Of a stretch of 64,000 nucleotides of DNA, positions 19,545 to 64,000 are shown one piece after another. How positions within the stretch are numbered: position 1 is the first letter of the stretch; every line of letters begins with the position of its first letter. The notes below the pieces were generated by a model that was not told where the DNA came from, did no database searches, and worked only from the letters and a program-made list of their open reading frames with translations. The stretch comes from a virus. The position numbers and the translations under genes are program-made. The stretch is taken from the UHGV virus genome UHGV-0209617. The stretch is one strand, 5' to 3'.

Positions 19545-19978
19545 AAAAAACTACTCCATATTTCCTTGCCCCTCGTAGAAGGGTCTTTTTTTATGTCGAA
19601 AAGTAAGTGATTACATAAGTAATAATGTAATTATAACGCTTACTATTGCTTGTTTCAAGCTAGTATAGTAATGAAATACACAGAAAGTAAGTGATTATAT
19701 CAGAAATTTACTTACTATACTGAAATTCTTATACTTAAAGACAGTGAAGGACAACCAAACTTTATATACAGCGGAGGTGTTTTTCACATCCCTGTTTCAA
19801 TGTTCATCGCCTGATCAGCGATGCCCAGAGCGGAGAAACGGACACAAGTAAATATCAGTCAACCCACTGGGACGGTTGGCCAGCTAAGAAATGAGGATTT
19901 CATTCTTATGGCCAATTATTATGGGAAGTTCAGTGTGGGTCCTCATTTCGGTTTTCAGACCGAAGGAGGGTCTACACG

Positions 19979-20488
19979 ATGGACAAATTTGAAAATCTAC
20001 AGACAAGCAACGAGAAGCAGTATTACATTCCTTTGGAAGTAACCGCAGAAACTATCAGAGATTTTGGCATCAACCCTAAAGATGTGGTATGGACGAGAAT
20101 CGGGAACAAGCCTAAAAAGGTTGTTATGATTCCCGTAACCGAGGAGCAGTACAAAACATTTATGCGTCCTCTGTGGCGTGAGGACAAGCGTCAGCAAAGA
20201 CAGGAGCCGATGGCATCGCTGGATAAGATGTACGAAAAAACCGAGTACGAAGCGGCTGATACCGACTCTGACCTTGAAGCGAATATTATGAAGAAAATGC
20301 TGATTGATGAGCTTCACAAGGCACTGGATGAACTGGAAGAAATCGACCGCACCATTATGAAGATGTACAGCAATAACCATAGCGAAGCCGAAATCGGACA
20401 GACTATCGGTATGAGCCAGAAGGGTGTTAATAAACGTAAGCACAAGGTGCTGCTGAAACTTAACACCAGATTGAAAGACTTCAGATAA
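19979..20488 (+). CDS. Sigma-70 region-4-like HTH protein (putative phage transcription factor)
   Basis: C-terminal EIGQTIGMSQKGVNKRKHKVLLKL HTH; GAAGGAGGG SD. Confidence 0.65.
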   Translation: MDKFENLQTSNEKQYYIPLEVTAETIRDFGINPKDVVWTRIGNKPKKVVMIPVTEEQYKTFMRPLWREDKRQQRQEPMASLDKMYEKTEYEAADTDSDLEANIMKKMLIDELHKALDELEEIDRTIMKMYSNNHSEAEIGQTIGMSQKGVNKRKHKVLLKLNTRLKDFR

Positions 20489-20502
20489 GGGATAATACCC
20501 TG

Positions 20503-20541
20503 CCTGCTCTGCCACAGCATTATCCGGTGGAGCAGGTTTTT
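20503..20541 (+). terminator. Rho-independent terminator candidate
   Basis: CCTGCTC ... GAGCAGG stem then TTTTT, 15 nt after the stop. Confidence 0.5.
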
Positions 20542-20562
20542 ATATTGTTTTCAAAAAATAGT

Positions 20563-20629
20563 GGTTCTTAAAACAACCGTATATGTCCTTTCACTCTCAG
20601 AGGGGCAAACAAGGCACCTCGGAAAGGAC
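20563..20629 (+). promoter_or_regulatory. Conserved leader element copy 1 (GGTTCTTAAAAC ... GTCCTTTCACTCTCAGAGGGG ... GAAAGGAC)
   Basis: Same blocks recur at 25507-25571; TCCTTTC and GAAAGGA can pair as a stem. Confidence 0.45.
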
Positions 20630-20807
20630 GGTGTCAAACGATGACAACCAGATGTAGAACAGGCACGAGGGGCTGCGGCAGTCAGGAACTCGACCGAGAG
20701 TTATCTGATGCGCTTATCGCAATCAGTGTCGTGTCAAAAAGAATCGCTGACCGTATTACAGCAGTCAGCGGCAGAGAAAAAAAAGAATATGGAAGGAGGA
20801 AGCCTAA

Positions 20808-21170
20808 ATGGGAAAGATGAACGAGTTGTCTATGCTCACAGAGGAACTTCGCAAATGTGGTGAAACGCTTATCAGCATTTCAGAGGAATTGGCGGGTATG
20901 TTCAGCGGCTCTGCGGAAGAAAAGCAGCCTGTCAAAAAGAGTGCTGCTAAGAATAAAGCCGCCGAGGCGACGAAGCCAGAAGCGCCGAAGAAAAAGGCTC
21001 TCACGCTGGAAGATGTCCGTGCCGTGTGTGCAGACAAATCCCGCAGTGGTTTTACGGCAGAAGTCAAAGCAATCCTGAATAAGCACGGTGTGGAAAAGCT
21101 GTCGGAGGTTAATCCAGCAGAATATAAGGCACTGCTTGCTGAAGTGGAGGTGCTGGGAAATGCCGGATAA
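20808..21170 (+). CDS. Hypothetical phage protein (120 aa, lysine- and alanine-rich middle)
   Basis: ORF with GAAGGAGG SD. Confidence 0.55.
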   Translation: MGKMNELSMLTEELRKCGETLISISEELAGMFSGSAEEKQPVKKSAAKNKAAEATKPEAPKKKALTLEDVRAVCADKSRSGFTAEVKAILNKHGVEKLSEVNPAEYKALLAEVEVLGNAG

Positions 21171-22332
21171 ACAGAAGGTGAATTGCACCGCAGGTGCAAG
21201 AGAGGCTGGCCTGGGCCACGCAGTTTTATCAGCATCATCCAGTCACCGCTGGCTTGCCTGCCCTCCTTCGGCTTTGCTTTGTGCGAAAGTCGGAGATACC
21301 ATAAGCGAGTTTGCTATGCAGGGTACCGATGCCCACAGCCTTTGCGAACATAAGGTGAAAACAGCATTGGGGCAGCAGTCGAAAGACCCTACAGAGAATT
21401 TAACGTTCTTTGACGAGGAGATGGCAGACTGTTCCGATATGTATGCTCAGTATGTGATGGAGCAGCTTGGGGCGGCAAAGGAAAAGTGCAAAGACCCAAT
21501 CGTTCTGATTGAACAGCGTCTTGATTTTTCCAAGTGGGTACCGCAGGGGTTCGGCACCGGGGACTGTGTCATTGTAGCTGATGAAACGCTGACAATCATT
21601 GACATGAAATACGGAGTCGGGATTCTTGTTTACGCAGAGAAAAATCCGCAAATGATGTGTTACGCATTGGGAGCTTTGGCGCTGTTTGATGGGATTTACG
21701 ATATAACACAGGTATCAATGACAATCTTCCAGCCGCGAAGAGACAATGTCAGCACATACACCATTTCTAAAGTAGAACTTCTGAAATGGGCGGATGAGGT
21801 GCTTGCTCCGACCGCACAGCTTGCAGCCAAGGGAGAAGGAGAATACAAGGCCGGAGACCACTGCCAGTTCTGCAAGGTCAAAGCCAAGTGTCGCAAAAGA
21901 GCCGAATACAACCTGGAACTTGCCCGTTATGATTTTGAAATGCCTTCCACCCTTGAAGACGATGAGATTGAGGCCATTTTAGAAAAAGCAGACGCGCTGG
22001 TATCCTGGGCGGGCGATGTCAAGGAATATGCATTGCAGCAGGCAGTCAGCGGCAAGCAGTGGAAAGACTGGAAGATTGTCGAAGGACGCTCCAACAGGAA
22101 GTATGTAAATGAAACAGCCGTGGCAGATACGGTCAAGGATGCAGGTTATGACCCGTTTGAACATAAGGTTCTGGGGATTACCGCAATGACCAAACTACTC
22201 GGCAAGGCAAAATTTGAAGAATTGCTCTCCGGGTTTATTGAAAAAACACAGGGCAAGCCAACATTGGTACCTATGTCGGACAAACGTCCGGCAATGAATA
22301 CAGCAGCTAACGATTTTAAGGAGGACAACTAA
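21160..22332 (+). CDS. DUF2800-type PD-(D/E)xK nuclease (Cas4/RecB-like, with Cys cluster)
   Basis: SASSSHRWLACP N-terminal motif, IIDMKYG, C-terminal CQFCKVKAKC cysteine cluster. Confidence 0.75.
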   Translation: MPDKQKVNCTAGAREAGLGHAVLSASSSHRWLACPPSALLCAKVGDTISEFAMQGTDAHSLCEHKVKTALGQQSKDPTENLTFFDEEMADCSDMYAQYVMEQLGAAKEKCKDPIVLIEQRLDFSKWVPQGFGTGDCVIVADETLTIIDMKYGVGILVYAEKNPQMMCYALGALALFDGIYDITQVSMTIFQPRRDNVSTYTISKVELLKWADEVLAPTAQLAAKGEGEYKAGDHCQFCKVKAKCRKRAEYNLELARYDFEMPSTLEDDEIEAILEKADALVSWAGDVKEYALQQAVSGKQWKDWKIVEGRSNRKYVNETAVADTVKDAGYDPFEHKVLGITAMTKLLGKAKFEELLSGFIEKTQGKPTLVPMSDKRPAMNTAANDFKEDN

Positions 22333-22333
22333 T

Positions 22334-22900
22334 ATGTCAAAGAATTACACAAATCCTACCAAGGTAATCACAGGAGTCAATACTCGTTGGTCTTACGCAA
22401 ATGTGTGGGATCCGAAATCCATCAACGGCGGTGCACCGAAGTACAGCGTGAGCCTTATCATTCCGAAGTCTGATACCGCAACGGTAAACAAGATAAAGGC
22501 AGCTATCCAGTCTGCTTATGAAGAGGGCGAATCCAAGCTGAAGGGCAATGGCAAGAGTGTACCTGCTCTTTCCATTATTAAGACCCCTCTTCGTGATGGT
22601 GATTTGGAGCGTCCGGATGATGTAGCGTATGCAGGCTGTTACTTCGTCAATGCCAACTCTGCAACTGCTCCCGGTATTGTTGACGCAGAACGTCAGCCGA
22701 TTCTTGACCGCAGTGAGGTATACAGCGGTGTGTATGGCCGTGCATCCATCAACTTCTATGCCTTCAATTCCAATGGGAATAAGGGTATCGCCTGCGGTCT
22801 TAATAACCTGCAGAAGATCCGTGATGGTGAGCCTCTTGGTGGAAAGAGCCGTGCCGAGGACGATTTTGCTACCGATGCAGATGAAGATTTTCTCGCATAA
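22334..22900 (+). CDS. DUF2815-type phage protein (SSB-like, usually partnered with DUF2800 and DNA polymerase)
   Basis: Size, position and sequence character fit my recollection of this family; AAGGAGGA SD. Confidence 0.6.
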   Translation: MSKNYTNPTKVITGVNTRWSYANVWDPKSINGGAPKYSVSLIIPKSDTATVNKIKAAIQSAYEEGESKLKGNGKSVPALSIIKTPLRDGDLERPDDVAYAGCYFVNANSATAPGIVDAERQPILDRSEVYSGVYGRASINFYAFNSNGNKGIACGLNNLQKIRDGEPLGGKSRAEDDFATDADEDFLA

Positions 22901-23127
22901 GGAGGACGGCTTATTATGACAACCATTCAGAGTATGATGCTGTGTGTTTCGGTGCCGTGATGGGAACTTTCATTGCAGATGTGGGGTTTCTCATCAAGTG
23001 TGTCATTGACAAGCACAAGGAGAAAAAGAGTAAGAAAAAAGAAGAGTCTGCTGATAAGGCAGAGTAAATGACAGCGGGCGGCGTAGGTGTATTCTTCGCC
23101 GCCTTGCTTATATGAAGGAGTGACAAT

Positions 23128-25119
23128 ATGGGAAAAATACAAACATTGTCCTTGGACTTGGAGACTTATTCTGATGTGGATTTGCAGAAGTGCGGGGTCT
23201 ATAAATATGCCCAGTCTCCTAATTTTGAAATTCTGCTATTTGGTGTATCCGTAAATGGCGGTGCGGTTGTGGTCTATGACCTGGCACAGGGCGATACCGT
23301 GCCGATTGAAATTATCAAAGCACTGACCGATGAAACCGTAACCAAATGGGCATATAATGCGGCTTTCGAGAGAATCTGTTTGTCAGTGTGGCTGCAGAGA
23401 AACTACCCGGAATATTTTTGCAGTTACAGCATCAATGAGGATACTGTCGGGGATTATCTGGATCCTTCTGCCTGGAAATGCTCCATGATATGGGCGGCAT
23501 ACATGGGACTGCCGTTATCCCTTGCGGGAGCCGGCACGGTGTTGGGATTGGAGGAACAGAAACTCAAGGAGGGCAAAGACCTTATAAGGTATTTCTGTGT
23601 TCCCTGCAAGCCGACCAAAGTGAACGGCGGCAGGACACGCAATCTGCCGGAGCATGATATGGAGAAATGGAATACCTTCGTTTTATATAACAAGCGAGAT
23701 GTGGAAGTGGAGACGTCCATACAGGACAAACTAAAAAAATTCCCTGTGCCGGATTTTGTGTGGGATGAGTACCACCTCGACCAGGAAATCAACGACCGTG
23801 GGATTGCTCTTGATATGGCGGTAGTGGAGAATGCCATTGCTTTTGATGCAAAATCCAAGGCGGAACTGGCAGAGAAAATGCAGGAACTGACTGACCTTGA
23901 TAACCCAAACTCCGTGGTACAGATGAAGCAGTGGCTATTGGATAACGGTTTGGAGATGGACAGCCTTGGAAAAAAGAAAGTAGCACAGGCGATAAAAACT
24001 GCTCCGAAGGAACTGGCGGAGGTTCTGCAGCTGCGACAACAATTATCCAAGTCCTCCGTAAAAAAGTATCAGGCAATGCAGAATGCTGTCTGTGAGGATG
24101 GCAGAGCCAGAGGGATGTTTCAGTTTTACGGGGCAAACAGAAGCGGCAGATGGGCAGGCAGAATGATACAGCTGCAAAATCTGCCTCAGAACCATATGCC
24201 GGATTTGGAACAGGCACGAGGACTGGTGAAGTCTGGTAATTACGCAGCGATGGAACTCTTATATGATGATATCCCCGATACTCTATCGCAGCTTATCCGC
24301 ACTGCCTTTGTGCCGAGACCGGGTATGAAATTTGTCGTGGCGGACTTCTCGGCAATTGAAGCAAGGGTGCTGTCGCATCTTGCAAAAGAAAACTGGCGAA
24401 CAGAAGTCTTTGCAAATAACAGGGATATTTATTGTGCATCGGCATCAGCCATGTTCGGTGTTCCTGTGGAAAAACATGGTGTCAACGGAAACCTCCGTCA
24501 AAAGGGCAAAATTGCTGAATTGGCTCTGGGCTACGGCGGTTCAGTCGGTGCTTTGAAAGCAATGGGTGCCATTGATATGGGACTTTCCGAAGAGGAATTA
24601 CAGCCACTGGTGGATTCTTGGAGAGCCGCCAACCCTAACATTGTGAAGTTCTGGTGGGAGGTTGACCGATGTGTCAAGGAAACTGTGAAAAAGAGAGTGC
24701 CGACCGAAACGCATGGCATCCGTTTTATCTATCAGAGCGGGATGCTTTTTATCAAGCTCCCTTCCGGCAGACAGCTTTCCTATGTGAAGCCTCGCATGGG
24801 AGAAAACCGTTTTGGCGGTGAGTCCGTAACCTATGAAGGTGTCGGAGGTACAAAGAAATGGGAACGCATCGAAAGTTATGGTCCAAAGTTTGTGGAAAAT
24901 ATCGTGCAGGCAATCAGCAGGGACATTTTGGCGCATTCCATGAGAACCTTGTCGCACTGCTTTATCTGCGGTCATGTGCATGATGAATTGATTATTGAGT
25001 GTAGTATGGGAGTTTCCCTTGATGCCGTGTGTGAACAGATGGGCAGGACTCCGGCCTGGATACCGGGTCTGCTTCTCCGTGCAGATGGGTACGAATGCAG
25101 CTTCTATAAAAAAGATTAA
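23128..25119 (+). CDS. Family A DNA polymerase (phage type, with 3'-5' exonuclease domain)
   Basis: LSLDLETYS (exo I), DFSAIEARV (motif A), RQKGKIAELALGYGG (motif B), VHDELIIE (motif C). Confidence 0.9.
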   Translation: MGKIQTLSLDLETYSDVDLQKCGVYKYAQSPNFEILLFGVSVNGGAVVVYDLAQGDTVPIEIIKALTDETVTKWAYNAAFERICLSVWLQRNYPEYFCSYSINEDTVGDYLDPSAWKCSMIWAAYMGLPLSLAGAGTVLGLEEQKLKEGKDLIRYFCVPCKPTKVNGGRTRNLPEHDMEKWNTFVLYNKRDVEVETSIQDKLKKFPVPDFVWDEYHLDQEINDRGIALDMAVVENAIAFDAKSKAELAEKMQELTDLDNPNSVVQMKQWLLDNGLEMDSLGKKKVAQAIKTAPKELAEVLQLRQQLSKSSVKKYQAMQNAVCEDGRARGMFQFYGANRSGRWAGRMIQLQNLPQNHMPDLEQARGLVKSGNYAAMELLYDDIPDTLSQLIRTAFVPRPGMKFVVADFSAIEARVLSHLAKENWRTEVFANNRDIYCASASAMFGVPVEKHGVNGNLRQKGKIAELALGYGGSVGALKAMGAIDMGLSEEELQPLVDSWRAANPNIVKFWWEVDRCVKETVKKRVPTETHGIRFIYQSGMLFIKLPSGRQLSYVKPRMGENRFGGESVTYEGVGGTKKWERIESYGPKFVENIVQAISRDILAHSMRTLSHCFICGHVHDELIIECSMGVSLDAVCEQMGRTPAWIPGLLLRADGYECSFYKKD

Positions 25120-25131
25120 AGCATAAAAAAT

Positions 25132-25157
25132 GGAGAGACGAAATAAATCGTCTCTCC
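25132..25157. terminator. Perfect 9-bp hairpin GGAGAGACG-AAATAAAT-CGTCTCTCC with an A-run on its 5' side
   Basis: Read directly; no T-run on the plus strand, so it is oriented to stop leftward transcription or to act as a structured site. Confidence 0.4.
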
Positions 25158-25506
25158 TGAAAGTCCAATCGGTTTGAGCATCTGTGAGAGGCTTGATTGG
25201 TTCTGTCAAATCCCAAAATGCAAGGAGAGCCGGATTTCTCTGACTCTCTCAAGTATGTATCCTTGAATACATACCCCAATTAGTGTCCATATTATACAGC
25301 TTCCGTTCGAAATATGCAAGACCTAAATGAAATTTTTCAAGGCAGACATTCGTGCTGATAAATCCGGATGAATGACGATTGCTGCTACTGCGGGATTGAC
25401 GGATATTTTATAGTCATCTGTGATTTTCTCAAATTCTCGAATGAAGGCCTTTATTTCGGTTTTGGCATATGTAGCAATTTTAAGAGCAAAAAAAGATTAA
25501 AAATAC

Positions 25507-25571
25507 GGTTCTTAAAACGCAGGGTTTTGTCCTTTCACTATCAGAGGGCAAGACCCTACTTTTATGAAAGG
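25507..25571 (+). promoter_or_regulatory. Conserved leader element copy 2; 3' arm overlaps the SD of the Rha gene
   Basis: GGTTCTTAAAAC ... GTCCTTTCACTATCAGAGGG ... GAAAGG; CCTTTCA can pair with TGAAAGG, which includes the SD. Confidence 0.45.
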
Positions 25572-25581
25572 CGGTATTTTT

Positions 25582-26247
25582 ATGAAAGAATTGATACCCA
25601 AAGACGAATACGGCATCTTTGCCGATGCACATGACACCGCAAGAGTAGACAGCTTGTTTGTAGCGGAGTTTTTTGAGAAGAACCATAAAGAGGTGCTGCG
25701 AGATATCCGCAAAATCACTGACCCCACATCCGGGTTAAGTGAAGAATTCCGACAGCGCAATTTTGCGCCGTCCTCATACACCAACAACCAGAATAAAAAG
25801 CAGCCGTGCTACTGCATGACTCGTGATGGATTCACAATGTTGGCAATGGGATATACCGGGCAAAAGGCAATGAAGTTCAAAGAACTGTACATTCACAGAT
25901 TTAATGAGATGGATGCTTTTATTAAGAACCTGGTATCTGCAAGACAGGAGTTTCCTCTTCTGACTGAAAATATCAAACTGCTCCATGACAAGCCGAAGCC
26001 TTACCACTTCAGCAATGAGTGCGATATGTTAAACCGCATCGTGCTTGGTATGACGGCAAAGCAGTTCAGACTTGCCAATAACATCGAAAAAGGCAAAAGT
26101 ATCAGACCGTATCTGACCAAAGAACAAATTGAGATGCTGGAAATCCTGCAGAAAGTTGATGTGGGTCTGCTCGTAGCATTCCCTGCTTACGAAGACAGAA
26201 AACGCCATCTTGAATGGTACAAAACCAAATTAGAGGAGGACAAATAA
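25582..26247 (+). CDS. Rha family phage regulatory protein
   Basis: DTARVDSLFVAEFFEKNHKEVLRDIRKI matches the Rha N-terminal domain. Confidence 0.8.
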   Translation: MKELIPKDEYGIFADAHDTARVDSLFVAEFFEKNHKEVLRDIRKITDPTSGLSEEFRQRNFAPSSYTNNQNKKQPCYCMTRDGFTMLAMGYTGQKAMKFKELYIHRFNEMDAFIKNLVSARQEFPLLTENIKLLHDKPKPYHFSNECDMLNRIVLGMTAKQFRLANNIEKGKSIRPYLTKEQIEMLEILQKVDVGLLVAFPAYEDRKRHLEWYKTKLEEDK

Positions 26248-26249
26248 AG

Positions 26250-50943: not shown

Positions 50944-50946
50944 GCC

Positions 50947-55603: not shown

Positions 55604-55617
55604 GGAGGTAGAGATGA

Positions 55618-57972: not shown

Positions 57973-58202
57973 TGTATTACAACAGAAAAACAGGAGACTT
58001 GAGCAGTGTTCCACCATGGGGCGCTGCTTTTTTACTGCCCAAAATCAGGAAGGCAAGATTTCCAGATTGGGAAGAAGTGGATGATGGCTTTGTTCCAAAG
58101 AATAAGAAGGTTGAGCTATCTGAGCCTGAAACCAGCAAGGCTGACATCGAGCTTGCTGAGGCTTTAATAGAAATCTACAGCATATTGGAGGAGAGAAAAT
58201 GA
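57969..58202 (+). CDS. Hypothetical small phage protein
   Basis: ORF translationally coupled to the fiber gene. Confidence 0.5.
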   Translation: MMYYNRKTGDLSSVPPWGAAFLLPKIRKARFPDWEEVDDGFVPKNKKVELSEPETSKADIELAEALIEIYSILEERK

Positions 58203-58357
58203 AGATTTACAAGTACAAGGCAAAGGCCTACGCAGTGCTGGTAAAGGCAGGAAGGTACATACTGTCTGAAGATCAGAGGGAGAACAAGAAGCAGGAGCTT
58301 GTACCAGAGGAGTATGCAGATCTTGTGGCAGAGATTCTTCTTGGAGGCGATAGCTGA
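58199..58357 (+). CDS. Small protein (52 aa), not in the ORF track
   Basis: ATG overlaps the upstream stop (ATGA), GGAGGAGAGAAA SD, and its stop overlaps the next ATG (ATGA). Confidence 0.5.
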   Translation: MKIYKYKAKAYAVLVKAGRYILSEDQRENKKQELVPEEYADLVAEILLGGDS

Positions 58358-58725
58358 TGGATGAGAGGGATGTAGTCATGCTTTACATCCAGGTTGGTGG
58401 TGCGTTACTTGTCAGTGCCATCACAGGCGTAATGGGTGCTCTGGTACGTGAGGTATGGGCGCTTAGAAAGGAACGACAGGAAAAAGCCATAGAGGAAGAA
58501 GCTGAACGGGGAAAACGCAGAAAGGCATTAAAGGCACTCTTGAAGTTTCAGCTTCATCGCTCCTGGCAGTATCACACCAGCAATGGCTTCATGCCAGCCA
58601 ACGAGATGAGCCTTCAGACAGAGCTGTATGAGGCTTATCACGATATGGGAGGTAACGGCACCGGGACAAAGCTCTATAACGAGATGATGGAGCTGCCACA
58701 TATCAAGCACACGGAGGTAAAGTAA
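58357..58725 (+). CDS. Membrane protein, holin-like (one N-terminal TM segment plus charged coiled region)
   Basis: VMLYIQVGGALLVSAITGVMGALV hydrophobic segment; GGAGG SD; in the lysis cassette. Confidence 0.5.
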   Translation: MDERDVVMLYIQVGGALLVSAITGVMGALVREVWALRKERQEKAIEEEAERGKRRKALKALLKFQLHRSWQYHTSNGFMPANEMSLQTELYEAYHDMGGNGTGTKLYNEMMELPHIKHTEVK

Positions 58726-59030
58726 TGAAGAACTTAATAGTACAGTTTTCTGCATGGGCGCAGGCCAACTGGCTTGCGCTTGTTATTTTTATGATTTTTT
58801 CCATGATGGCATTCCTGTGCATGGTCATGGGAAGCTGGCTTTATGGCTACTGGTCAAATGCTCTCTGCGGCACGAAGTTTGAACTTGGTAGCTGCTGGCA
58901 GGGAATCACTGTTGTTATCACGGGCCTTGGCGGTGTTGCAGCACTGGCCAAGGCTGCATGGACCAAGTATTCAACGGACAGCCAGTATAACAGCATGATG
59001 GGGAGTCATCCATACGAAAGGGGTAAGTGA
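58725..59030 (+). CDS. Holin (two predicted TM segments)
   Basis: Two hydrophobic stretches; immediately upstream of the endolysin. Confidence 0.6.
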   Translation: MKNLIVQFSAWAQANWLALVIFMIFSMMAFLCMVMGSWLYGYWSNALCGTKFELGSCWQGITVVITGLGGVAALAKAAWTKYSTDSQYNSMMGSHPYERGK

Positions 59031-59602
59031 TTATGATTAAGGGTATTGATGTATCGGAGAACAACGGCACTGTAGATTGGCAGGCAGTAAAGAATGCCGG
59101 GATTGAGTTTGCTATTGTAAGAAGCTCCTATGGTAAGACGGGAGTGGATGAGAAGTTCCTGGAAAATGTAAATGGTGCTCATGCAGTGGGGCTGAAGGTT
59201 GGTGCTTACCATTATGGCTATGGCCTGACTCCGGCTGATGCAGTGCTTGAAGCAAGGAACTGCCGTGAGGTAATTGATGAGGCAGGAGTGCTTCTGGAGC
59301 TTCCTGTTTTCTATGACATGGAAGATGCTGATGGCTATAAAGAAAGACACGGATTTTGGTTTGACCCAGAGAATGCCACAGGTATCTGCAGGGCATTCCT
59401 GGATAACATTGGCCTGAACTGTGGTGTATACGCATCATACAGCTGGCTTTGTGATTTGATTGACTGGCGCAGTCTCGGCTGCTCAGTCTGGAACGCAGAA
59501 TGGGGAGGTAGCGATGATATTGAAGGATATATGTGGCAGTTTACGGAAAAGCTTTATATCTCTGGTAAGCAGTTTGATGGAAACTATCTCTACAACTGGT
59601 AA
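59027..59602 (+). CDS. GH25-family lysozyme endolysin (muramidase)
   Basis: IKGIDVSENNGTVDWQAVKNAGIEFAIVR ... GAYHY pattern typical of GH25. Confidence 0.8.
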   Translation: MIMIKGIDVSENNGTVDWQAVKNAGIEFAIVRSSYGKTGVDEKFLENVNGAHAVGLKVGAYHYGYGLTPADAVLEARNCREVIDEAGVLLELPVFYDMEDADGYKERHGFWFDPENATGICRAFLDNIGLNCGVYASYSWLCDLIDWRSLGCSVWNAEWGGSDDIEGYMWQFTEKLYISGKQFDGNYLYNW

Positions 59603-59616
59603 GGCGGTGATGGGGC

Positions 59617-60036
59617 ATGAGAAAATCATTCTGGTTTGTGCTGCTGTTATTGCTCTTGTGTGTGCCGCAGCTTTCCTTTGCTGCAGAGAGGACATACCAA
59701 GTGACGGAGACAGAGCTGACGAGGTTAGAACAGAACTTGACGGAGCTATCCGAAATGAACAGCAAGCAATCAATGAACTTAGAACAGCAGAAGATACAGC
59801 TTCAGAACTCGGATTTGCAGTTGAAGCAGGCCGAAGAGAAGTACAGTCTGCTATCCAGTCAAATGAAGAACTTGGAGAAGGAAATGCTAGAGCAGCAGGA
59901 CTCATTAGAGAATGCCAGGAAATCCTTCGAACAGTTCGCCAAAGAGGAACAATTGAAGAGAGATAAGCTGAAGCGTGAAAAGAATATAGGATACTGGCTT
60001 GCAGGGATACTAGCTGTAGTATGTATTGCCAGATAA
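59617..60036 (+). CDS. Signal peptide + coiled-coil + C-terminal membrane anchor protein (unknown function)
   Basis: MRKSFWFVLLLLLLCVPQLSFAAE signal-like N-terminus; heptad-like Q/E/K/L-rich middle; hydrophobic C-terminus IGYWLAGILAVVCIAR. Confidence 0.6.
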   Translation: MRKSFWFVLLLLLLCVPQLSFAAERTYQVTETELTRLEQNLTELSEMNSKQSMNLEQQKIQLQNSDLQLKQAEEKYSLLSSQMKNLEKEMLEQQDSLENARKSFEQFAKEEQLKRDKLKREKNIGYWLAGILAVVCIAR

Positions 60037-60203: not shown

Positions 60204-60228
60204 ATAAGCACGGTTGGAGGTGATTGCC

Positions 60229-60810
60229 ATGAATGACATTGAAAAGCTTGTTGATGAGTCAGGAATGATTACAACTAGAGATATAGTGAAAAATAATCAG
60301 TCAAAAGTAGAATTTTACAATTACCTGAGAAAAAATGATTTTGAACAAGTATCGCGTGGTATATATGCTTCTAAGGATGCGTGGGTAGACCCATTATTGA
60401 TTGCGCATATGAGATGTCCTAAAGCGGTGATCTCTCATGATGTGGCACTTCATTATTATGGCTTGGTTGATAGAGAGCCTTCAGCTCCAACGCTTACTAT
60501 TTATTCTGGATACAACACAAGCAGGTTAAAAGAAGCAGGGTACAAGGTGTTTTTCGTGAAGAAGGAATACCTTGATGCTGGCAAAGAAGAGGTTGTAAAT
60601 TTTGATGGCAACATCATTCCTATGTATAACCTTGAAAGAACGATGTGTGACCTTGTCAGAAACAGAAGCAGCTTTGAGATTCAAGATTTCAATGCAGCTA
60701 TAAAAGCGTATGCCAGAAAAAAGGAAAAGAATCTTACAAGGCTATTTGAATATGCGAAAATGCTTAGGGTGGAAAAATTGATGCGGTCATATATGGAGGT
60801 GCTTTTGTAA
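60229..60810 (+). CDS. abiEi: AbiEi-family antitoxin / transcriptional regulator
   Basis: N-terminal DNA-binding-like region ending ...VSRGIYA; paired with a DUF1814-type nucleotidyltransferase; GGAGGTGA SD. Confidence 0.75.
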   Translation: MNDIEKLVDESGMITTRDIVKNNQSKVEFYNYLRKNDFEQVSRGIYASKDAWVDPLLIAHMRCPKAVISHDVALHYYGLVDREPSAPTLTIYSGYNTSRLKEAGYKVFFVKKEYLDAGKEEVVNFDGNIIPMYNLERTMCDLVRNRSSFEIQDFNAAIKAYARKKEKNLTRLFEYAKMLRVEKLMRSYMEVLL

Positions 60811-61664
60811 TGATCTTATCAGCTGCACAGGCAAGAGGCAGGATTAAGAATATTGTGGCAAAAAATGGTGCGGACCCAAGACTGCTTATGAGAATTTATA
60901 TGATGGAGAGATTTTTGGAACGAGTATCCCTTTCTGCATACAAGGATAATTTCATCATTAAGGGCGGAATGCTTATAACATCATTGGTTGGTATTTCCAT
61001 GCGGTCAACTATGGATATTGACACAACTGTAAAAGGCCAGGATGTAAGCATGGAAAATGCACAGCGTATTGTTAAAGAAATTGCTGACATTCAGATTGAT
61101 GATGGGGTTTCTTTTGTGATTAAAGATGTAGAAAACATAATGGATGAGATGGAATATCCAGGAATCAAATTTCACTTGGAAGTGTTATTAGACAAAATGG
61201 TTACGCCAATAAAGATTGATGTTTCTACGGGCGATGCAATTACACCCAGAGCGATTGAATATAATTACAAGCTTATGCTTGAAGATAGAGAAATCGGGCT
61301 GTGGAGCTATAATCTGGAAACAATCCTTGGGGAAAAATTACAGACGATACTTGTACGTGAACGTGCAAACACCAGAATGAGAGATTTCTATGATATATGT
61401 GTATTGGTAGAAATGTATGACAGTAAGATAAATACTGTCAATTTCAAAGCAGCATATGAGGCGACCTGTAGAAAAAGAGGGTCATTACACTTATTTGGTA
61501 ATGAAGGAAAAATACTGGATATAATAGCTGGTGAAAGTAAAATGATTGATAGATGGACAAATTATCAGAAGAAGTTTTCTTATGCATCTGATATCAGTTT
61601 TGAGAAAGCTATTCAGTGTGCAAAGGGGTTAATTTCATTCTTGAAAAATAGTACCGGAAAATAA
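60810..61664 (+). CDS. abiEii: AbiEii-family nucleotidyltransferase toxin (DUF1814-type)
   Basis: 284 aa directly coupled to the AbiEi gene; typical gene pair. Confidence 0.75.
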   Translation: MILSAAQARGRIKNIVAKNGADPRLLMRIYMMERFLERVSLSAYKDNFIIKGGMLITSLVGISMRSTMDIDTTVKGQDVSMENAQRIVKEIADIQIDDGVSFVIKDVENIMDEMEYPGIKFHLEVLLDKMVTPIKIDVSTGDAITPRAIEYNYKLMLEDREIGLWSYNLETILGEKLQTILVRERANTRMRDFYDICVLVEMYDSKINTVNFKAAYEATCRKRGSLHLFGNEGKILDIIAGESKMIDRWTNYQKKFSYASDISFEKAIQCAKGLISFLKNSTGK

Positions 61665-61697
61665 TATGTCAGCTTAATAGTATATGGAAATGTACGT

Positions 61698-61736
61698 CCC
61701 TATGTGGAACTTGAGGTTCTGCATAGGGTATTTTTT
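61698..61736 (+). terminator. Rho-independent terminator after abiEii
   Basis: CCCTATG ... CATAGGG stem followed by TTTTTT. Confidence 0.65.
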
Positions 61737-61892
61737 GTTATCGCTGGTTCTAAAAATGGTTCTTGTTGTCCTTGTACTGTTGAGGTGAAGAATCATGACG
61801 GATTTCCGTTCAAAGAGTGCATTTCTGTCATGGGACTGTTAAAGGGGTTCGATTTGCCCTGATTTGCCGCATATAAGTAGGAGGGATGCATC

Positions 61893-62270
61893 ATGACAGA
61901 AGTAGAGAAGAAAAGAATAAAGGAGCTTCATTATCAGGGGCTGGGATATCGGAAGATTGCTGCCGAACTTGGCATGTCCCCTAATACTGTGAAATATGTA
62001 ACCAAGAATCTGGTAGCTACGGATAATCATACCTGCAGGAACTGCGGCATCAAAGTTTTACAGACAGCAGGACGCAAGGAGAAGAAGTTCTGTTCAGATA
62101 AATGCCGTATGGATTGGTGGAACAGCCATCTCGATACTGTTAATCGCAAGGGATATAAGACCTTTACCTGTAAATGCTGCAGTAAGGAATTCATGGCTTA
62201 TGCCAGGACAGGCAGGAAATACTGCAGCCGGGAATGTTATTTCAAGGCTAGATATGGAGGTGCAAGATGA
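61893..62270 (+). CDS. HTH protein with C-terminal zinc-ribbon motifs (Tn916 orf7-like position)
   Basis: LHYQGLGYRKIAAELGMSPNTVKY HTH followed by several CxxC pairs. Confidence 0.6.
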   Translation: MTEVEKKRIKELHYQGLGYRKIAAELGMSPNTVKYVTKNLVATDNHTCRNCGIKVLQTAGRKEKKFCSDKCRMDWWNSHLDTVNRKGYKTFTCKCCSKEFMAYARTGRKYCSRECYFKARYGGAR

Positions 62271-62458
62271 GTACGCCGTTGAATGAAAAGTACACACTTA
62301 GTATAAAGGAATCCGCCAAGTATTTCGGTATTGGCATGAAAAGGCTGCGGCGGCTTGCAGAAGAACATATGGACACCTTTGCTATCCGCTGTGGCAACAA
62401 GTATCTCATCATCCGCACTGAGTTTGAAGCCTTTCTGAAGGATTCAGAAGAAATATAG
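62267..62458 (+). CDS. xis: Excisionase-family DNA-binding protein (Tn916 Xis-like)
   Basis: EKYTLSIKESAKYFGIGMKRLRRLAEEH resembles the Tn916 Xis N-terminus. Confidence 0.7.
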   Translation: MSTPLNEKYTLSIKESAKYFGIGMKRLRRLAEEHMDTFAIRCGNKYLIIRTEFEAFLKDSEEI

Positions 62459-62526
62459 CTTATATGCCAAATAGTAGTTGAATAATATCGCAAACAGAGT
62501 GATATATAGTGTCGGAGGTGATGAGC

Positions 62527-62751
62527 ATGCAGAAATCAGATCTTGGGGAACGGGAATACCTTAGCAAGAAGTATACTGCCGTCTTCTTCGGACTCAGTCC
62601 CAGGCGGCTTGAGCGATTCCTCAAAGCAGATGACTATGATTTTGTTGTGTATTATAAGAAAAGAACACTGATATTAAGGGAGGCCTTCAACAGATATCTC
62701 TGGAGGAATCCTGATGTAAGGGAGATGTTGAAACGTGGCAAGACGAGGTGA
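62527..62751 (+). CDS. Second excisionase-like HTH protein
   Basis: YLSKKYTAVFFGLSPRRLERFLK; start chosen at the ATG 8 nt after GGAGG. Confidence 0.55.
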   Translation: MQKSDLGEREYLSKKYTAVFFGLSPRRLERFLKADDYDFVVYYKKRTLILREAFNRYLWRNPDVREMLKRGKTR

Positions 62752-64000
62752 AGTAAGAAGGGATTCAAGGAACAGGCTGTTAAGGATAGGTGAATCCCAG
62801 CGTAAAGATGGCAAGTACATGTTCAAATACCATGTGGATGGCAGACCGTATTTCGTCACCAGCTGGAGACTGCTGCCTTCAGATAGGCAGCCAAAAGGTA
62901 CAAAGCCTACCCTTTCACTGAGGGAATTGGAAAAGAAGGTAGGAAGGGAAATCGACCTGCAGATGAGCCTTGAACTCAGGAACTGCACGGTTAAGGATTT
63001 GGTTGAGCGGTATTTGGCTACCAGGATTAATGCAAAGCCGAATACCAAGATGGGGTATAATACTGTAAAGAATGTACTGGAAAGTGAGCCCTTTTATCAT
63101 AGGAAGATAAAAACAATCAAGGTATCTGATGCAAAGATATTCCTCATCAAGTTGCAGGAAAATGGCAGGAAGGCCAGCACGGTGAAATGCATCAGAGGGG
63201 TTCTCCGCCCGGCTTTTCAGATGGCTGTAGATGATGATATGCTGGTCAAGAATCCTTTTGCTTTCGAGCTGGCAGGTGTCCTGGTAAATGACTCAGTCAC
63301 AAGGGAGGCTGTCAGCAGGAGGGAAATGAAAAAGTTCTTGCAGTTTGTCAGGAACGATGATTGCTACTGCAAATACTATGAGGCAGTACATATACTGTTC
63401 CATACGGGAATGCGAATATCTGAATTCTGCGGTCTGACGATAAATGACCTTGATATGGAGAACAGAATCATAGATATAAACCATCAGCTGGTGCGTGTGG
63501 GAATGAAGCTGATAATACAGACCACAAAGACCAACGCAGGCACCAGAAGGATTCCGATGTCTGAGGATGTATATGAAATGTTCAAGAGCATATTGGCTAA
63601 CAGGCCAACAGGCATAGATGAGAAAGCCGTTGATGGGTATAAGGGGTTCCTCTACCTTGATAATGCCGGACTGCCACTTGTGGCAATGCACTGGTCAAAC
63701 AGGTTCAGGCATATGGTCGGGCGCTACAATGACATTTACAAAGAACAGATGCCTAAAATCACTCCTCACGTCTGCCGCCATACCTACTGCAGCAACATGG
63801 CAAAATCGGGAATGCATCCAAAGATCCTGCAGTACCTTATGGGGCATTCGGACATTGGTGTGACGCTCAATACATATACCCACTTAGGGCTTGAGGACGC
63901 CCAGGGCGAGATGGACAGACTGAAGGATGCCCAACAGGAGATTGACAAGGGCAAGGTAAGGGAACTGCCACCAACCAAGGCTCAATTCAAAGTAGTATAA
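62735..64000 (+). CDS. int: Tyrosine site-specific integrase (Tn916 Int-like), GTG start, stop codon at the window end
   Basis: N-terminal RRDSRNRLLRIGESQRKDGKYMFKY resembles the Tn916 Int arm-binding domain; C-terminal ...HVCRHTYCSNMAKSG...LMGHSDIGVTLNTYTH carries the recombinase R...H-x-x-R...Y region. Confidence 0.85.
   Translation: MARRGEVRRDSRNRLLRIGESQRKDGKYMFKYHVDGRPYFVTSWRLLPSDRQPKGTKPTLSLRELEKKVGREIDLQMSLELRNCTVKDLVERYLATRINAKPNTKMGYNTVKNVLESEPFYHRKIKTIKVSDAKIFLIKLQENGRKASTVKCIRGVLRPAFQMAVDDDMLVKNPFAFELAGVLVNDSVTREAVSRREMKKFLQFVRNDDCYCKYYEAVHILFHTGMRISEFCGLTINDLDMENRIIDINHQLVRVGMKLIIQTTKTNAGTRRIPMSEDVYEMFKSILANRPTGIDEKAVDGYKGFLYLDNAGLPLVAMHWSNRFRHMVGRYNDIYKEQMPKITPHVCRHTYCSNMAKSGMHPKILQYLMGHSDIGVTLNTYTHLGLEDAQGEMDRLKDAQQEIDKGKVRELPPTKAQFKVV

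What the first reader, a model, noticed from the sequence alone, without database searches (positions are those of the whole stretch)
19598..64000. Prophage with Tn916-type xis/int at the right end and candidate arm-type repeats at the left end
The integrase N-terminus and the adjacent excisionase resemble Tn916 Int and Xis, and they are the last genes reading rightward to the window edge, so the element's right attachment site lies just beyond the window. At the presumed left end, AAGTAAGTGATTA occurs as a direct repeat (19601-19613 and 19685-19697), with further CTTACT/AGTAAG copies between, which could be arm-type integrase binding sites. It is not resolved whether the whole 44-kb unit is one integrating phage or a phage next to a separate integrative element.
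Basis: partly seen in the sequence, partly recalled or inferred. Interest (0 to 1): 0.4.

Follow-up and report, generated by a model that had tools for sequence, protein, structure and literature searches.

The report
Prophage inserted in a phosphatase gene

Summary
The sequence features are real. The integrase (62735-64000) matches Tn1549 and Tn916 Int. A Tn916-type Xis lies at 62267-62458. AAGTAAGTGATTA occurs exactly at 19601 and 19685.

The left end is not at 19.6 kb. I extended the window with the identical public contig and compared it with a conspecific empty site. The inserted block runs from 10230 to 640 bp beyond the window (54,411 bp). It is bounded by a 10-bp core, TGCCACGGCA, in the first codons of a low-molecular-weight phosphatase gene. 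The phage supplies a substitute 5' end for that gene.

The 10.2-19.7 kb stretch is phage cargo:
- a DUF6273 gene;
- the 3' remnant of a large serine integrase;
- a LlaJI-type restriction-modification operon;
- a convergent CGNR zinc-finger gene.

Related phages keep an intact serine integrase and carry other defence genes in the same slot. The tyrosine int/xis module has therefore replaced the original integrase.

The flagged repeats sit on two divergent promoters upstream of the CGNR gene. They are conserved with that gene across distant relatives and have no copy in either att arm. They are probably operators. Better arm-site candidates are six TTCACCCC copies between int and the core.

Verdict: a new member of a known kind, of modest interest.

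The parts
10220..10229 (+). attL core TGCCACGGCA, inside codons 8-10 (Cys-His-Gly) of the native 5' end of a low-molecular-weight phosphatase gene (PF01451). Inserted DNA begins at 10230.
   Evidence: This is the only exact copy in the window. The same 10 bp occur at L001 11897-11906, which is window-equivalent 64631-64640. attB in L254 and L018 equals the attL left half plus the attR right half. L012 has a different left flank but the identical junction.
10230..10502 (.). Int-distal att arm. It starts GCGTATAAGG, which is conserved as GTGTTTAAGG at the junction of relative L100. It contains two ACGGTTA(A/C)AT direct copies.
   Evidence: No function was tested.
10503..11384 (+). DUF6273 protein gene, cargo of the integrase module side.
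   Evidence: PF19789 E 2.6e-30. The gene is absent from serine-integrase relatives L181-L183 and duplicated in L011.
11898..12331 (+). Pseudogene: the 3' remnant (aa 337-488) of a large serine recombinase, with a frameshift and in-frame stops.
   Evidence: tblastn against the intact 488-aa recombinase of L182 gives 81-94% identity. That protein has Resolvase, Recombinase and Zn_ribbon_recom domains. Backbone homology with relatives starts at 11896.
12377..12631 (+). Phd/YefM-like antitoxin gene at the head of the restriction cassette.
   Evidence: PF02604 E 1.7e-6, just below the Pfam cut-off. It is conserved in L181-L184.
12643..18321 (+). LlaJI-type restriction-modification operon. M1 is 12643-14298 (N6_Mtase/Eco57I). 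M2 is 14276-15349 (D12-class methyltransferase). R1 is 15354-17024 (AAA_5, McrB-like). R2 is 17041-18321 (RE_LlaJI).
   Evidence: Pfam hits listed. PADLOC REase_II E 1e-138 and 1e-117, and MTase_II. McrB-like hit in NCBIfam. The four-gene layout matches the one described for LlaJI in PMC1459862.
18360..19544 (-). 394-aa CGNR zinc-finger protein gene, convergent with R2. It is a constant partner of AAA_5 plus RE_LlaJI genes in related phages.
19569..19594 (+). Conserved G+C-rich hairpin followed by a T run (terminator-like), between the CGNR start codon and the first repeat.
   Evidence: The sequence is. The stem CCCCTC/GAGGGG is conserved in L181, L184 and L185. The consensus terminator scan did not call it.
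19600..19716 (.). The flagged repeats. AAAGTAAGTGATTA occurs at 19600-19613 and 19684-19697. CTTACT occurs at 19639-19644 and 19711-19716. I read these as operator-like sites overlapping two divergent promoters.
   Evidence: They are conserved in relatives at 81-94% protein identity. AAGTAA/TTACTT is the most widespread hexamer upstream of 16 CGNR-gene homologues, present in 15 of 16 and counted 36 times against 3.4 expected, with a recurring AGTAAx-N19-xTTACT pair.
19630..19658 (-). Promoter-like site TTGAAA-17-TATAAT facing the CGNR gene.
   Evidence: 11 of 12 consensus matches. Not tested experimentally.
19707..19735 (+). Promoter-like site TTTACT-17-TATACT facing the phage early operon.
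   Evidence: 9 of 12 consensus matches. The surrounding block is invariant in L181, L184 and L185.
19792..19945 (+). DUF2800 RNA motif (Rfam RF02960), a cis-regulatory leader of the early operon.
   Evidence: 81.8 bits against a gathering score of 60.2, full-length match.
19979..32697 (+). Early and replication module: sigma-70 region-4 protein, DUF2800 nuclease, DUF2815-type ssDNA-binding protein, family-A DNA polymerase, Rha, VapE primase-like protein, VRR-NUC, SNF2 helicase and HNH.
   Evidence: Pfam hits.
33253..60036 (+). Packaging, head, tail and lysis module: TerS 33253, ParB-methylase 33820, amidoligase 36576, TerL 38503, Phd/Doc pair 40222-40844, portal 40890, capsid 42860, tape measure 46830, GpJ-like 51911, GH25 lysin 59027 and p139 59617.
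   Evidence: The stretch 49027-60167 is 92.5% identical to IMG/VR contig L203, which then diverges.
60214..61664 (+). AbiEi/AbiEii toxin-antitoxin (abortive-infection) pair in a low-G+C insert.
   Evidence: PADLOC AbiEi E 4e-63 and AbiEii E 2.5e-93. G+C is 0.367.
61893..64000 (+). Integration module: HTH_38 regulator 61893-62270, Tn916-type Xis 62267-62458, second small HTH-like gene 62509-62751, and tyrosine integrase 62735-64000. Beyond the window it continues with a 630-bp arm and the attR core at window-equivalent 64631-64640.
   Evidence: The same four-gene order occurs in L098 at 48-67% identity. The arm and core were read in L001.

Best explanation
A single 54,411-bp temperate siphovirus-type prophage is integrated in the 5' end of a low-molecular-weight phosphatase gene of an Anaerovibrio-like host.

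Integration. A Tn916-subgroup tyrosine integrase, encoded as the last gene, recombined the phage attP with attB at the 10-bp identity TGCCACGGCA. That sequence covers the Cys-His-Gly codons of the phosphatase. The phage DNA next to the core carries a substitute ribosome-binding site and first codons, so the reading frame predicts an intact hybrid gene in the lysogen (MSKSILFVCHG in place of MNKILFICHG). attL is at window 10220-10229. attR is 631-640 bp beyond the window.

Excision. Excision should need Int together with the Tn916-type Xis (62267-62458). This step is inferred. Int probably binds the six TTCACCCC copies in the 630-bp arm between int and the core as arm-type sites. This is inferred by analogy with twelve GGTCTA copies at the same place in a relative.

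Origin. The phage is chimeric. Its relatives carry a large serine integrase at the left end, followed by a variable defence slot and then the early operon. Here the 5' two-thirds of that serine integrase, and presumably its attP, have been replaced by the HTH-Xis-Int-attP-DUF6273 module.

The flagged repeats. The defence slot holds a LlaJI-type M1-M2-R1-R2 operon and a convergent CGNR zinc-finger gene. The flagged AAGTAAGTGATTA repeats lie 9.4 kb inside the element. They sit on the divergent promoters of the CGNR gene and of the early operon. They are most likely operators for a cassette-encoded regulator. The CGNR protein itself is the obvious candidate, but this is inferred and not shown.
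For: Identity and extension of the window:
- L009 is 100% identical to window 8360-29544 and comes from the same contig as L001, which extends the window rightward.

The att sites:
- attB, attL and attR were resolved at base level using the conspecific empty site L254 (98.4% identity) and the related-species site L018.
- There is only one core copy in the window, and no near-copy at 11.9, 19.6, 60.2 or 61.85 kb.
- L012 shows the same left junction against a different flank.
- L100, whose Int is 57% identical, shows int, arm, phosphatase 5' end, TGCCACGGCA and then a similar left arm.

Int and Xis homology.

Candidate arm sites:
- TTCACCCC occurs 6 times in the 630-bp arm against 3 times in the 64-kb window. 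None of 20,000 shuffles gave 2 or more copies.
- In L100 all 12 GGTCTA copies lie in its 535-bp arm.

Chimeric origin:
- Serine-integrase remnant at 11898-12331.
- L203 diverges after 60167 and carries a serine integrase instead.
- Backbone homology in relatives covers 11896-12276 and resumes at 19730-19790, with a LlaJI-like cassette or a type I restriction-modification system in between.

The CGNR gene and the repeats:
- The CGNR gene always accompanies AAA_5 plus RE_LlaJI.
- The repeats are conserved and lie on predicted promoters.
- The AAGTAA motif is about 10-fold enriched upstream of 16 homologues.
- The flagged motif is absent from both att arms.
Against: - No excised attP junction was found in IMG/VR or JGI metagenome contigs. 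Excision of the 54.4-kb unit is therefore inferred from the att structure, not observed.
- At 54.4 kb the element is about 4-5 kb longer than my estimate for serine-integrase relatives and about 10 kb longer than many contigs of the family. Packaging competence is unproven.
- The TTCACCCC copies are arranged as three hairpin-forming inverted pairs and occur only on the int-proximal arm. They could be something other than arm-type sites.
- No experiment links the CGNR protein to the AGTAAG repeats. Its fold matched nothing informative.
- The promoter calls are consensus matches only.
Confidence: 0.75

Rival explanations
1. One reading: the phage is about 44 kb, its left end is at about 19.6 kb, and the AAGTAAGTGATTA / AGTAAG copies there are arm-type binding sites for the Tn916-type integrase.
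For: - The repeats are real and non-random.
- G+C jumps near 19.7 kb.
- From my own recollection, not checked here, the Tn916 arm-type site resembles AGTAGTAAATT, which is loosely like AGTAAGTAAATTT on the minus strand at 19704-19716.
Against: - There is no att core or near-core at 19.6 kb.
- The empty site L254 lacks everything from 10230 onward.
- The motif has no copy with 3 or fewer mismatches beyond the integrase or in the true left arm.
- The repeats lie 9.4 kb from the core.
- They travel with the CGNR/LlaJI cassette in phages that use a serine integrase (L181-L185), so they do not depend on this Int.
- The same motif is enriched upstream of CGNR homologues in unrelated integration contexts.
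Confidence: 0.03
2. Nested composite. A small integrative element (AbiE, HTH, Xis, Int, attP, DUF6273) sits in the phosphatase gene. A phage that lost its serine integrase is trapped inside it as a passenger. The block may excise, but it is not a viable phage genome and persists by vertical descent.
For: - The int module has a separate history. The HTH-Xis-Xis-Int order recurs in L098, and Xis-Int modules sit next to replication genes without structural genes in L100, L138 and L139.
- The DUF6273 module is duplicated in L011, next to another integrase.
- The serine integrase is truncated.
- The unit is longer than relatives.
- No attP junction was found.
Against: - The int module has no att sites of its own inside the block, so today it can move only together with the phage.
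- All phage structural, replication and lysis ORFs checked are intact in the window.
- The exact Int protein was found only with this phage's lysis module, in 24 contigs from many samples.
- The whole arrangement is 99.6-100% identical across samples, and in L012 it abuts a different left flank, which suggests recent movement.
Confidence: 0.17
3. The repeats are regulatory, but they are read by the restriction-modification methyltransferases, as in the epigenetic control of the LlaJI promoter, or by the phage sigma-like or Rha proteins, rather than by the CGNR protein.
For: - LlaJI expression is reported to be controlled through methyltransferase recognition sites in its promoter (cited in PMC11779793).
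- The repeats overlap the early promoter, which a phage regulator could also target.
Against: - The motif is conserved upstream of CGNR homologues whose neighbouring methyltransferases are of quite different families: DNA_methylase (5mC type) in L249, N6_N4_Mtase in L248 and N6_Mtase/D12 here.
- The restriction-modification operon's own promoter lies 7 kb away, at about 12.3 kb.
- The motif tracks the CGNR gene.
Confidence: 0.1

Closest known systems
Tn916 / Tn1549 Int and Xis (Tn916 subgroup of heterobivalent tyrosine recombinases)
   Same: - N-terminal arm-binding domain (PF02920; PDB 1B69/2BB8, E 2e-15).
- Core-binding and catalytic domains (Tn1549 Int 6EMY, E 8e-78).
- A PF09035 Xis just upstream.
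- xis-int as the last genes, transcribed towards the element end.
   Different: - The element is a tailed phage, not a conjugative transposon.
- Integration is site-specific at a 10-bp identity inside a gene. From my own knowledge, Tn916 inserts at loosely defined AT-rich targets with heteroduplex coupling sequences.
- A second small HTH gene lies between Xis and Int.
Temperate-phage integrases of the Tn916 subgroup, such as Lactobacillus phage mv4 and the streptococcal T12 cluster (bioRxiv 10.1101/2023.11.06.565760)
   Same: - A phage-borne Tn916-type Int with attP arms and an overlap region that requires identity between attP and attB.
- The paper calls the Tn916 subgroup the largest heterobivalent family and reports 7-bp overlaps. 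A 7-bp overlap fits inside the 10-bp core found here.
   Different: - mv4 targets the 3' end of a tRNA-Ser gene. This phage targets the 5' end of a protein-coding gene and rebuilds its start.
- The arm sites here are inferred only.
LlaJI restriction-modification system of Lactococcus plasmid pNP40 (PMC1459862)
   Same: Four co-oriented genes, M1-M2-R1-R2, with a McrB-like GTPase R1 and an RE_LlaJI-family R2.
   Different: - The methyltransferases here are of N6-adenine types, not 5mC types.
- The system is phage-borne.
- It always comes with a convergent CGNR zinc-finger gene, which the LlaJI papers read here do not mention.
Related prophages with the DUF2800 / family-A polymerase / VapE / SNF2 replication module that use a large serine integrase (IMG/VR contigs behind L181-L185 and L203; C. 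beijerinckii L248; Bacillus sp. L249)
   Same: - Backbone order of integrase, defence slot, DUF2800 RNA leader, sigma-like gene, replication, packaging, tail and lysis.
- Up to 94.7% nucleotide identity over 11896-20096 and 92.5% over 49027-60167.
   Different: They keep an intact serine integrase and lack the AbiE-HTH-Xis-Int-attP-DUF6273 block. Here the serine integrase is a 3' stump.

Membership tests
Tn916-subgroup heterobivalent tyrosine integrase | C-terminal tyrosine-recombinase catalytic domain with the conserved Arg, Lys, His-x-x-Arg, His/Trp and Tyr residues | tested here: met
   PF00589. Tn1549 Int 6EMY, E 8e-78, over aa 85-396. The motifs HTGMRISE, HVCRHTY and GHSDIGVTLNTYTH are visible in the translation. 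The residue assignment is by inspection only.
Tn916-subgroup heterobivalent tyrosine integrase | N-terminal three-stranded-sheet arm-binding domain homologous to Tn916 Int-N | tested here: met
   PF02920. PDB 1B69/1TN9 and 1BB8/2BB8, E 2e-15, aa 6-68.
Tn916-subgroup heterobivalent tyrosine integrase | Cognate excisionase of the Tn916-Xis family encoded next to int | tested here: met
   62267-62458: PF09035 E 8.9e-13 and PDB 1Y6U E 3.5e-10. It is separated from int by one further small gene.
Tn916-subgroup heterobivalent tyrosine integrase | Repeated arm-type sites in the att arms, distinct from the core-type sites | tested here: inconclusive
   Six TTCACCCC copies lie in the 630-bp int-proximal arm, against none of 20,000 shuffles with 2 or more. 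None lies in the int-distal arm within 1.2 kb. Binding was not tested.
Arm-type integrase sites (as proposed for the repeats at 19601 and 19685) | Located within the att arms, a few hundred bp from the crossover core | tested here: not met
   The core is at 10220-10229. The repeats lie 9.4 kb inside the element.
Arm-type integrase sites (as proposed for the repeats at 19601 and 19685) | Matching copies in the other arm, beyond the integrase | tested here: not met
   No copy with 3 or fewer mismatches in L001 11267-11960 or in window 10101-10560.
Arm-type integrase sites (as proposed for the repeats at 19601 and 19685) | Association with this integrase rather than with other genes | tested here: not met
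   The repeats are conserved in relatives that carry a serine integrase, and they track the CGNR gene.
Integrated temperate tailed phage (prophage) | Complete packaging, head, tail and lysis gene set together with replication genes | tested here: met
   TerS, TerL, portal, capsid, tape measure, GpJ-like protein, GH25, polymerase A, VapE and SNF2. The ORFs are uninterrupted.
Integrated temperate tailed phage (prophage) | Defined attL and attR with a matching empty attB in related genomes | tested here: met
   L254 (98.4% identical) and L018.
Integrated temperate tailed phage (prophage) | Excision, or production of particles | not testable with these tools
   The predicted attP junction was not found in IMG/VR or JGI contigs. 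That result is uninformative about activity.
LlaJI-type restriction-modification system | Operon of two methyltransferases plus a McrB-like GTPase R1 and an RE_LlaJI R2 | tested here: met
   12643-18321: PF02384/PF07669, PF02086, PF07728 and PF09563. PADLOC and NCBIfam hits. The layout matches PMC1459862.
LlaJI-type restriction-modification system | 5-methylcytosine methyltransferases recognising GACGC/GCGTC | tested here: not met
   Both methyltransferases here hit adenine-N6 families. The specificity is unknown.
Large serine recombinase (phage integrase) | N-terminal resolvase catalytic domain followed by the recombinase and zinc-ribbon domains | tested here: not met
   Only residues 337-488 remain at 11898-12331, with a frameshift and stops. 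The intact homologue in L182 has all three domains. This copy is a pseudogene.

The most novel reading that the evidence does not exclude
The CGNR zinc-finger protein and its array of AGTAA(G)/(C)TTACT sites may be an undescribed, obligatory third part of phage-borne LlaJI-like restriction cassettes. It would act as a DNA-binding switch on two divergent promoters, its own and the one that reads into the DUF2800-RNA leader and the phage early operon. It would thereby couple control of the defence cassette to the lysis-lysogeny decision in a widespread family of Firmicutes prophages that lack an obvious CI-type repressor.
Probability: 0.2. Interest if true: 0.55.

Novelty: new member of a known kind. 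Interest (0 to 1): 0.3.

Why it matters
Practical value:
- The work corrects the element's boundaries from 44 kb to 54.4 kb.
- It defines attB, attL and attR to the base.
- It removes a false candidate for integrase arm sites.

Biological points, each a modest addition to known themes:
- **A new kind of target.** A Tn916-type phage integrase targets the Cys-His-Gly codons at the start of a low-molecular-weight phosphatase gene and rebuilds the gene's 5' end. I did not find this target in the literature I could search. The codons are conserved in many Firmicutes, which could give a broad target range.
- **An integrase swap caught in the act.** The serine integrase has been replaced by a tyrosine integrase module, and the serine stump is still present.
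- **A defence hotspot.** The slot between the integrase and the early operon carries a LlaJI-like or a type I restriction-modification system in different relatives.

The one lead that could interest specialists in phage defence is the strict partnership of a CGNR zinc-finger gene, and its conserved AGTAAG site array, with LlaJI-like restriction genes.

Tried and rejected
- **Predicted attP junction.** I searched for TTCGTATGCCACGGCAGCGTATAAGG in IMG/VR and a 24-nt version in JGI metagenome contigs. Both gave 0 hits, so there is no direct evidence for the excised form.
- **A tRNA or known RNA at the att site.** None was found in L001 or in the window, apart from the DUF2800 RNA and the abiF RNA elsewhere.
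- **A shared direct repeat between 19.4-19.9 kb and the DNA beyond int.** Only a 9-mer (TAATGAAAT) is shared, which is chance level.
- **Small minus-strand ORFs at 11401-12298 as a possible repressor module.** They have no Pfam hits and implausible composition. The real signal there is the plus-strand serine-integrase remnant.
- **A second, degenerate att core marking a phage-only unit.** No near-core copy lies at any module boundary. The 1-mismatch copy at 20510 sits inside a terminator-like hairpin.
- **Literature searches.** Searches for CGNR with restriction and for a phosphatase-gene attB found nothing relevant.
- **Near-identity search of the structural half against deposited phages.** Only 2-7% coverage at 70-76% identity, so no close named relative exists there.
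- **Pfam scan of ORFs in window 256-8633.** No hits.

Full report
- AAGTAAGTGATTA occurs exactly at 19601-19613 and 19685-19697, and nowhere else in the window with fewer than two mismatches.
- The identity extends to 14 bases, and to 24 nt at 88%.
- An exact 13-mer repeat arose in only 28 of 20,000 shuffles of 19545-19760. The four AGTAAG/CTTACT hexamers at 19602, 19639, 19686 and 19711 are the densest such cluster in the 64 kb.
- The last ORF (62735-64000) stops exactly at the window edge. It has the Tn916 Int N-terminal domain and a tyrosine-recombinase domain (PF02920, PF00589).
- It matches Tn1549 Int (6EMY, E 8e-78) and the Tn916 Int N-domain structures (1B69/2BB8, E 2e-15).
- The Tn916-type Xis (PF09035; 1Y6U, E 3.5e-10) is 62267-62458. 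The gene that actually abuts int (62509-62751) is only a weak HTH_17 look-alike.
- Terminase subunits, portal, capsid, tape measure, a GpJ-like tail protein and a GH25 lysin confirm a tailed phage.

**Extending the window.**
- Contigs that encode the exact integrase were retrieved. L001 shares the last 200 bases of the window and continues for 10 kb.
- L009, from the same ENA contig (ERZ28638444 scaffold_39), is 100% identical to window 8360-29544. L001 is therefore a legitimate rightward extension.
- Downstream of int come a terminator, about 630 bp without genes, and then a low-molecular-weight phosphatase gene (PF01451). After that come ordinary host genes: DUF896, a carboxylase subunit, an aminotransferase, a UvrD-type helicase and CorA.
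- The nearest reference genome is an uncultured Anaerovibrio MAG (L018), with 95% protein identity and about 88% nucleotide identity in the flank.

**The attachment sites.**
- L018 has an uninterrupted phosphatase gene. Its first 79 bp, with the upstream leader, match window 10151-10229 at 97%.
- In the window that match ends abruptly at 10229, after ATGAATAAGATTTTGTTTATCTGCCACGGCA.
- The same 10 bases, TGCCACGGCA, occur in L001 at 11897-11906. That is window-equivalent 64631-64640, inside a different set of first codons.
- A JGI/ENA metagenome contig, L254, is 98.4% identical to window 9102-10229 joined directly to the phosphatase gene. Its sequence equals attL to the left of the core and attR to the right.
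- The insertion is therefore 54,411 bp, from window 10230 to 640 bp beyond the window.
- The core is the only exact copy in the window. No one-mismatch copy lies near 11.9, 19.6, 60.2 or 61.85 kb.
- The core encodes the Cys-His-Gly that begins the CHGNICRS stretch of the phosphatase. The phage side of attR supplies a new ribosome-binding site and start, MSKSILFVCHG instead of MNKILFICHG. The gene is rebuilt rather than destroyed (read directly).
- Two further observations support 10230 as a true terminus:
  - L012, from another sample, has an unrelated left flank but the identical junction. That flank's last 50 nt resemble phosphatase starts of Lachnospira.
  - An IMG/VR contig (L100) with an Int 57% identical shows int, arm, phosphatase 5' end, TGCCACGGCA and then GTGTTTAAGG…. 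This is an attP-like or tandem junction with the same core and a similar left-arm start.

**What lies between 10.2 and 19.7 kb.**
- The order is:
  - a DUF6273 gene (10503-11384);
  - about 1 kb without good ORFs;
  - a Phd-like gene;
  - a four-gene LlaJI-type restriction-modification operon (12643-18321);
  - a convergent 394-aa gene on the minus strand (18360-19544).
- The "ORF-less" kilobase contains, on the plus strand at 11898-12331, the last 152 codons of a large serine recombinase, with a frameshift and stops.
- The intact 488-aa protein (Resolvase, Recombinase and Zn-ribbon domains) sits at exactly this place in close relatives. Those relatives (L181-L183, L114, L118, L119) are 94.7% identical over window 11896-20096.
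- Other relatives share only 11896-12276 and then 19730 or 19790 onward.
  - In L112, L117 and L133 a distant LlaJI-like cassette fills the gap.
  - In L111 a type I restriction-modification system fills it.
- The family layout is therefore serine integrase, a variable defence slot, then the early operon.
- The 10.2-19.7 kb region is phage cargo plus an integrase stump. It is not a neighbouring island.

**The right-hand side tells the same story.**
- L203 is 92.5% identical to window 49027-60167, through the lysin and p139. It then diverges and carries a serine integrase where the window has AbiEi/AbiEii, the HTH_38 gene, Xis, the second small HTH gene and Int.
- The HTH-Xis-Xis-Int order recurs in L098 at 48-67% identity.
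- On the circular map, the block from about 60.2 kb through attP to 11.9 kb has replaced the serine integrase's 5' part and its att site.
- Because the block has no internal att sites, the only unit the tyrosine integrase can now excise is the whole 54.4 kb.

**What the flagged repeats are.**
- They lie in the 435-bp gap between the 394-aa gene (start codon at 19544, minus strand) and the early operon (sigma-like gene at 19979).
- The consensus scan finds two divergent promoters:
  - TTGAAA-17-TATAAT (19658 to 19630, minus strand, 11 of 12 matches);
  - TTTACT-17-TATACT (19707-19735, plus strand, 9 of 12 matches).
- The sites sit on these promoters as follows:
  - repeat 1 lies just downstream of the minus-strand -10 hexamer;
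  - one CTTACT lies in that promoter's spacer;
  - repeat 2 lies 10-22 bp upstream of the plus-strand -35 hexamer;
  - the last CTTACT overlaps that -35 hexamer.
- Downstream follows a full-length DUF2800 RNA motif (RF02960, 19792-19945, 81.8 bits).
- The repeats and the block around the plus-strand promoter are conserved in L181, L184 and L185.
- Homologues of the 394-aa protein are annotated as CGNR zinc-finger proteins.
- In 22 of 22 IMG/VR loci, and in Clostridium beijerinckii and Bacillus sp. genomes, such a gene sits between RE_LlaJI/AAA_5 genes and a DUF2800-polymerase phage module, down to 30% identity. Family members that lack one of the three genes lack all three.
- Across the 250 bp upstream of 16 such genes, AAGTAA/TTACTT is the most widespread of all hexamers. 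It occurs in 15 of 16 regions, 36 times against 3.4 expected. An AGTAAx-N19-xTTACT pair recurs in several.
- The repeats are therefore a conserved feature of the CGNR-gene control region. The most economical reading is operator sites, with the CGNR protein as the candidate binder. That last step is inference.

**Arm-type sites.**
- The flagged motif has no copy with 3 or fewer mismatches in the 700 bp beyond int or in the true left arm.
- The int-proximal arm contains two 197-bp repeats (L001 11335-11480 and 11532-11680).
- It also contains six TTCACCCC copies, arranged as three inverted pairs. The whole 64-kb window has only three copies, and no shuffle of the arm gave two or more.
- In L100 all twelve GGTCTA copies of the 10.9-kb locus lie in the equivalent 535-bp arm.
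- By analogy, TTCACCCCA is the better candidate arm-type site. Their hairpin arrangement and their absence from the other arm leave this open.

**Comparison with what is known.**
- Tn916-subgroup integrases are described as the largest heterobivalent family. They include temperate-phage integrases such as mv4 and the T12 cluster, with 7-bp overlaps that require attP/attB identity (bioRxiv 10.1101/2023.11.06.565760). The 10-bp core here accommodates such an overlap.
- The restriction cassette matches the four-gene LlaJI layout (PMC1459862) but has adenine-type methyltransferases.
- The DNA search of deposited phage genomes found no close relative: at most 7% coverage of the structural half (window 38500-60100), at 70-76% identity.
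- Exchange of integrase modules between related phages is a familiar form of mosaicism (my own knowledge).
- The element is therefore a new member of a known kind.
- The points that may be new are:
  - the phosphatase 5'-end target, which I did not find in the searchable literature;
  - the constant CGNR partner of LlaJI-like cassettes, which the LlaJI papers read here do not mention.

**Limits.**
- Excision, packaging, arm-site binding, promoter activity and restriction activity are all inferred.
- The predicted attP junction was not found in IMG/VR or JGI contigs.
- At 54.4 kb the element is larger than its relatives. A trapped, non-viable composite remains a live rival at about 0.17.
- Against that rival, the ORFs are intact, the arrangement is near-identical across many samples, and the same junction occurs against a different flank.

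Noticed in passing
window 1-264, 994-1200, 1721-2200: There are fragments of a second, related phage. Two copies of a terminase large-subunit C-terminus are 82% and 81% identical in protein to aa 468-555 and 487-555 of the prophage's TerL. A portal N-terminus (aa 1-161) is 65% identical. Unrelated minus-strand ORFs lie between them, and about 6 kb of low-G+C ORFs without Pfam hits follow. This looks like a decayed prophage at the same hotspot.
   Followed up: partly
window 25164-25200 (- strand): An abiF RNA (Rfam RF03085, 43.3 bits against a gathering score of 37) lies between the DNA polymerase and the Rha gene.
   Followed up: no
L001 11335-11480 and 11532-11680 (window-equivalent about 64069-64414): Two tandem 197-bp repeats (84% identical over 85 nt) lie between int and the att core. 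Each carries a TTCACCCCA…TGGGGTGAA hairpin, and a third hairpin lies at 11671-11692. A TGgTATAAT extended -10-like element follows the int terminator and points towards the rebuilt phosphatase gene.
   Followed up: partly
L011 (reverse complement) 1-2200: In another sample the same site carries the end of a second, related integrase gene, then the phosphatase 5' end and core, then an extra copy of the DUF6273 module (window-like 10131-11446 and 11646-11868), and only then the element from 10481 onward. This suggests tandem or rearranged elements at this attB.
   Followed up: partly
L012 (reverse complement) 1-303: The same left junction (TGCCACGGCA|GCGTATAAGG) abuts a different phosphatase 5' region (MIKILFICHG). 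Its last 50-70 nt are 79-85% similar to Lachnospira and Lachnospiraceae phosphatase gene starts. This could be a second host background or another tandem element.
   Followed up: partly
L098 10001-11691; window 9816-10085: An IMG/VR contig with an Int 67% identical has, right after int, an 89-aa ORF that is 91% identical to window ORF 9816-10085. That window ORF lies just left of attL. The DNA left of attL may itself be the right end of an older element of the same family.
   Followed up: no
L100, L138, L139: Related Xis-Int modules sit directly after replication genes (SNF2 and HNH, or DUF2800, the ssDNA-binding protein and polymerase A) with no structural genes in between. These may be satellite-like or deleted derivatives of the phage family.
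   Followed up: no
window 40222-40844: A Phd-like/Doc(Fic)-like pair is inserted between the terminase large subunit and the portal gene. The Doc-like protein hits the PADLOC candidate families PDC-S23 and PDC-M59B. The decayed phage at the window start also has unrelated small genes at the same TerL-portal position.
   Followed up: no
window 36576-38097: An Amidoligase_2 gene (E 5e-70) is followed by a 152-aa ORF that I judge, from reading the sequence only, to be gamma-glutamyl-cyclotransferase-like. Both lie just upstream of the terminase.
   Followed up: no
window 18308-18364: A 57-bp segment between the stop codons of R2 (18321) and the CGNR gene (18360) matches itself in reverse orientation in relatives (86%). 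It is probably a shared bidirectional terminator hairpin.
   Followed up: no
whole window: One-mismatch copies of TGCCACGGCA number 12, against 3.1 expected (0 of 100 shuffles reach 12). Two palindromic variants are counted on both strands, and none lies at a module boundary. The excess is unexplained.
   Followed up: partly
L003 and L006 (AbiEii); L010 and L013 (VapE): In some samples the AbiEii gene or the VapE primase-like gene is split into two ORFs, whereas both are intact in the window. This indicates ongoing decay in part of the population.
   Followed up: no
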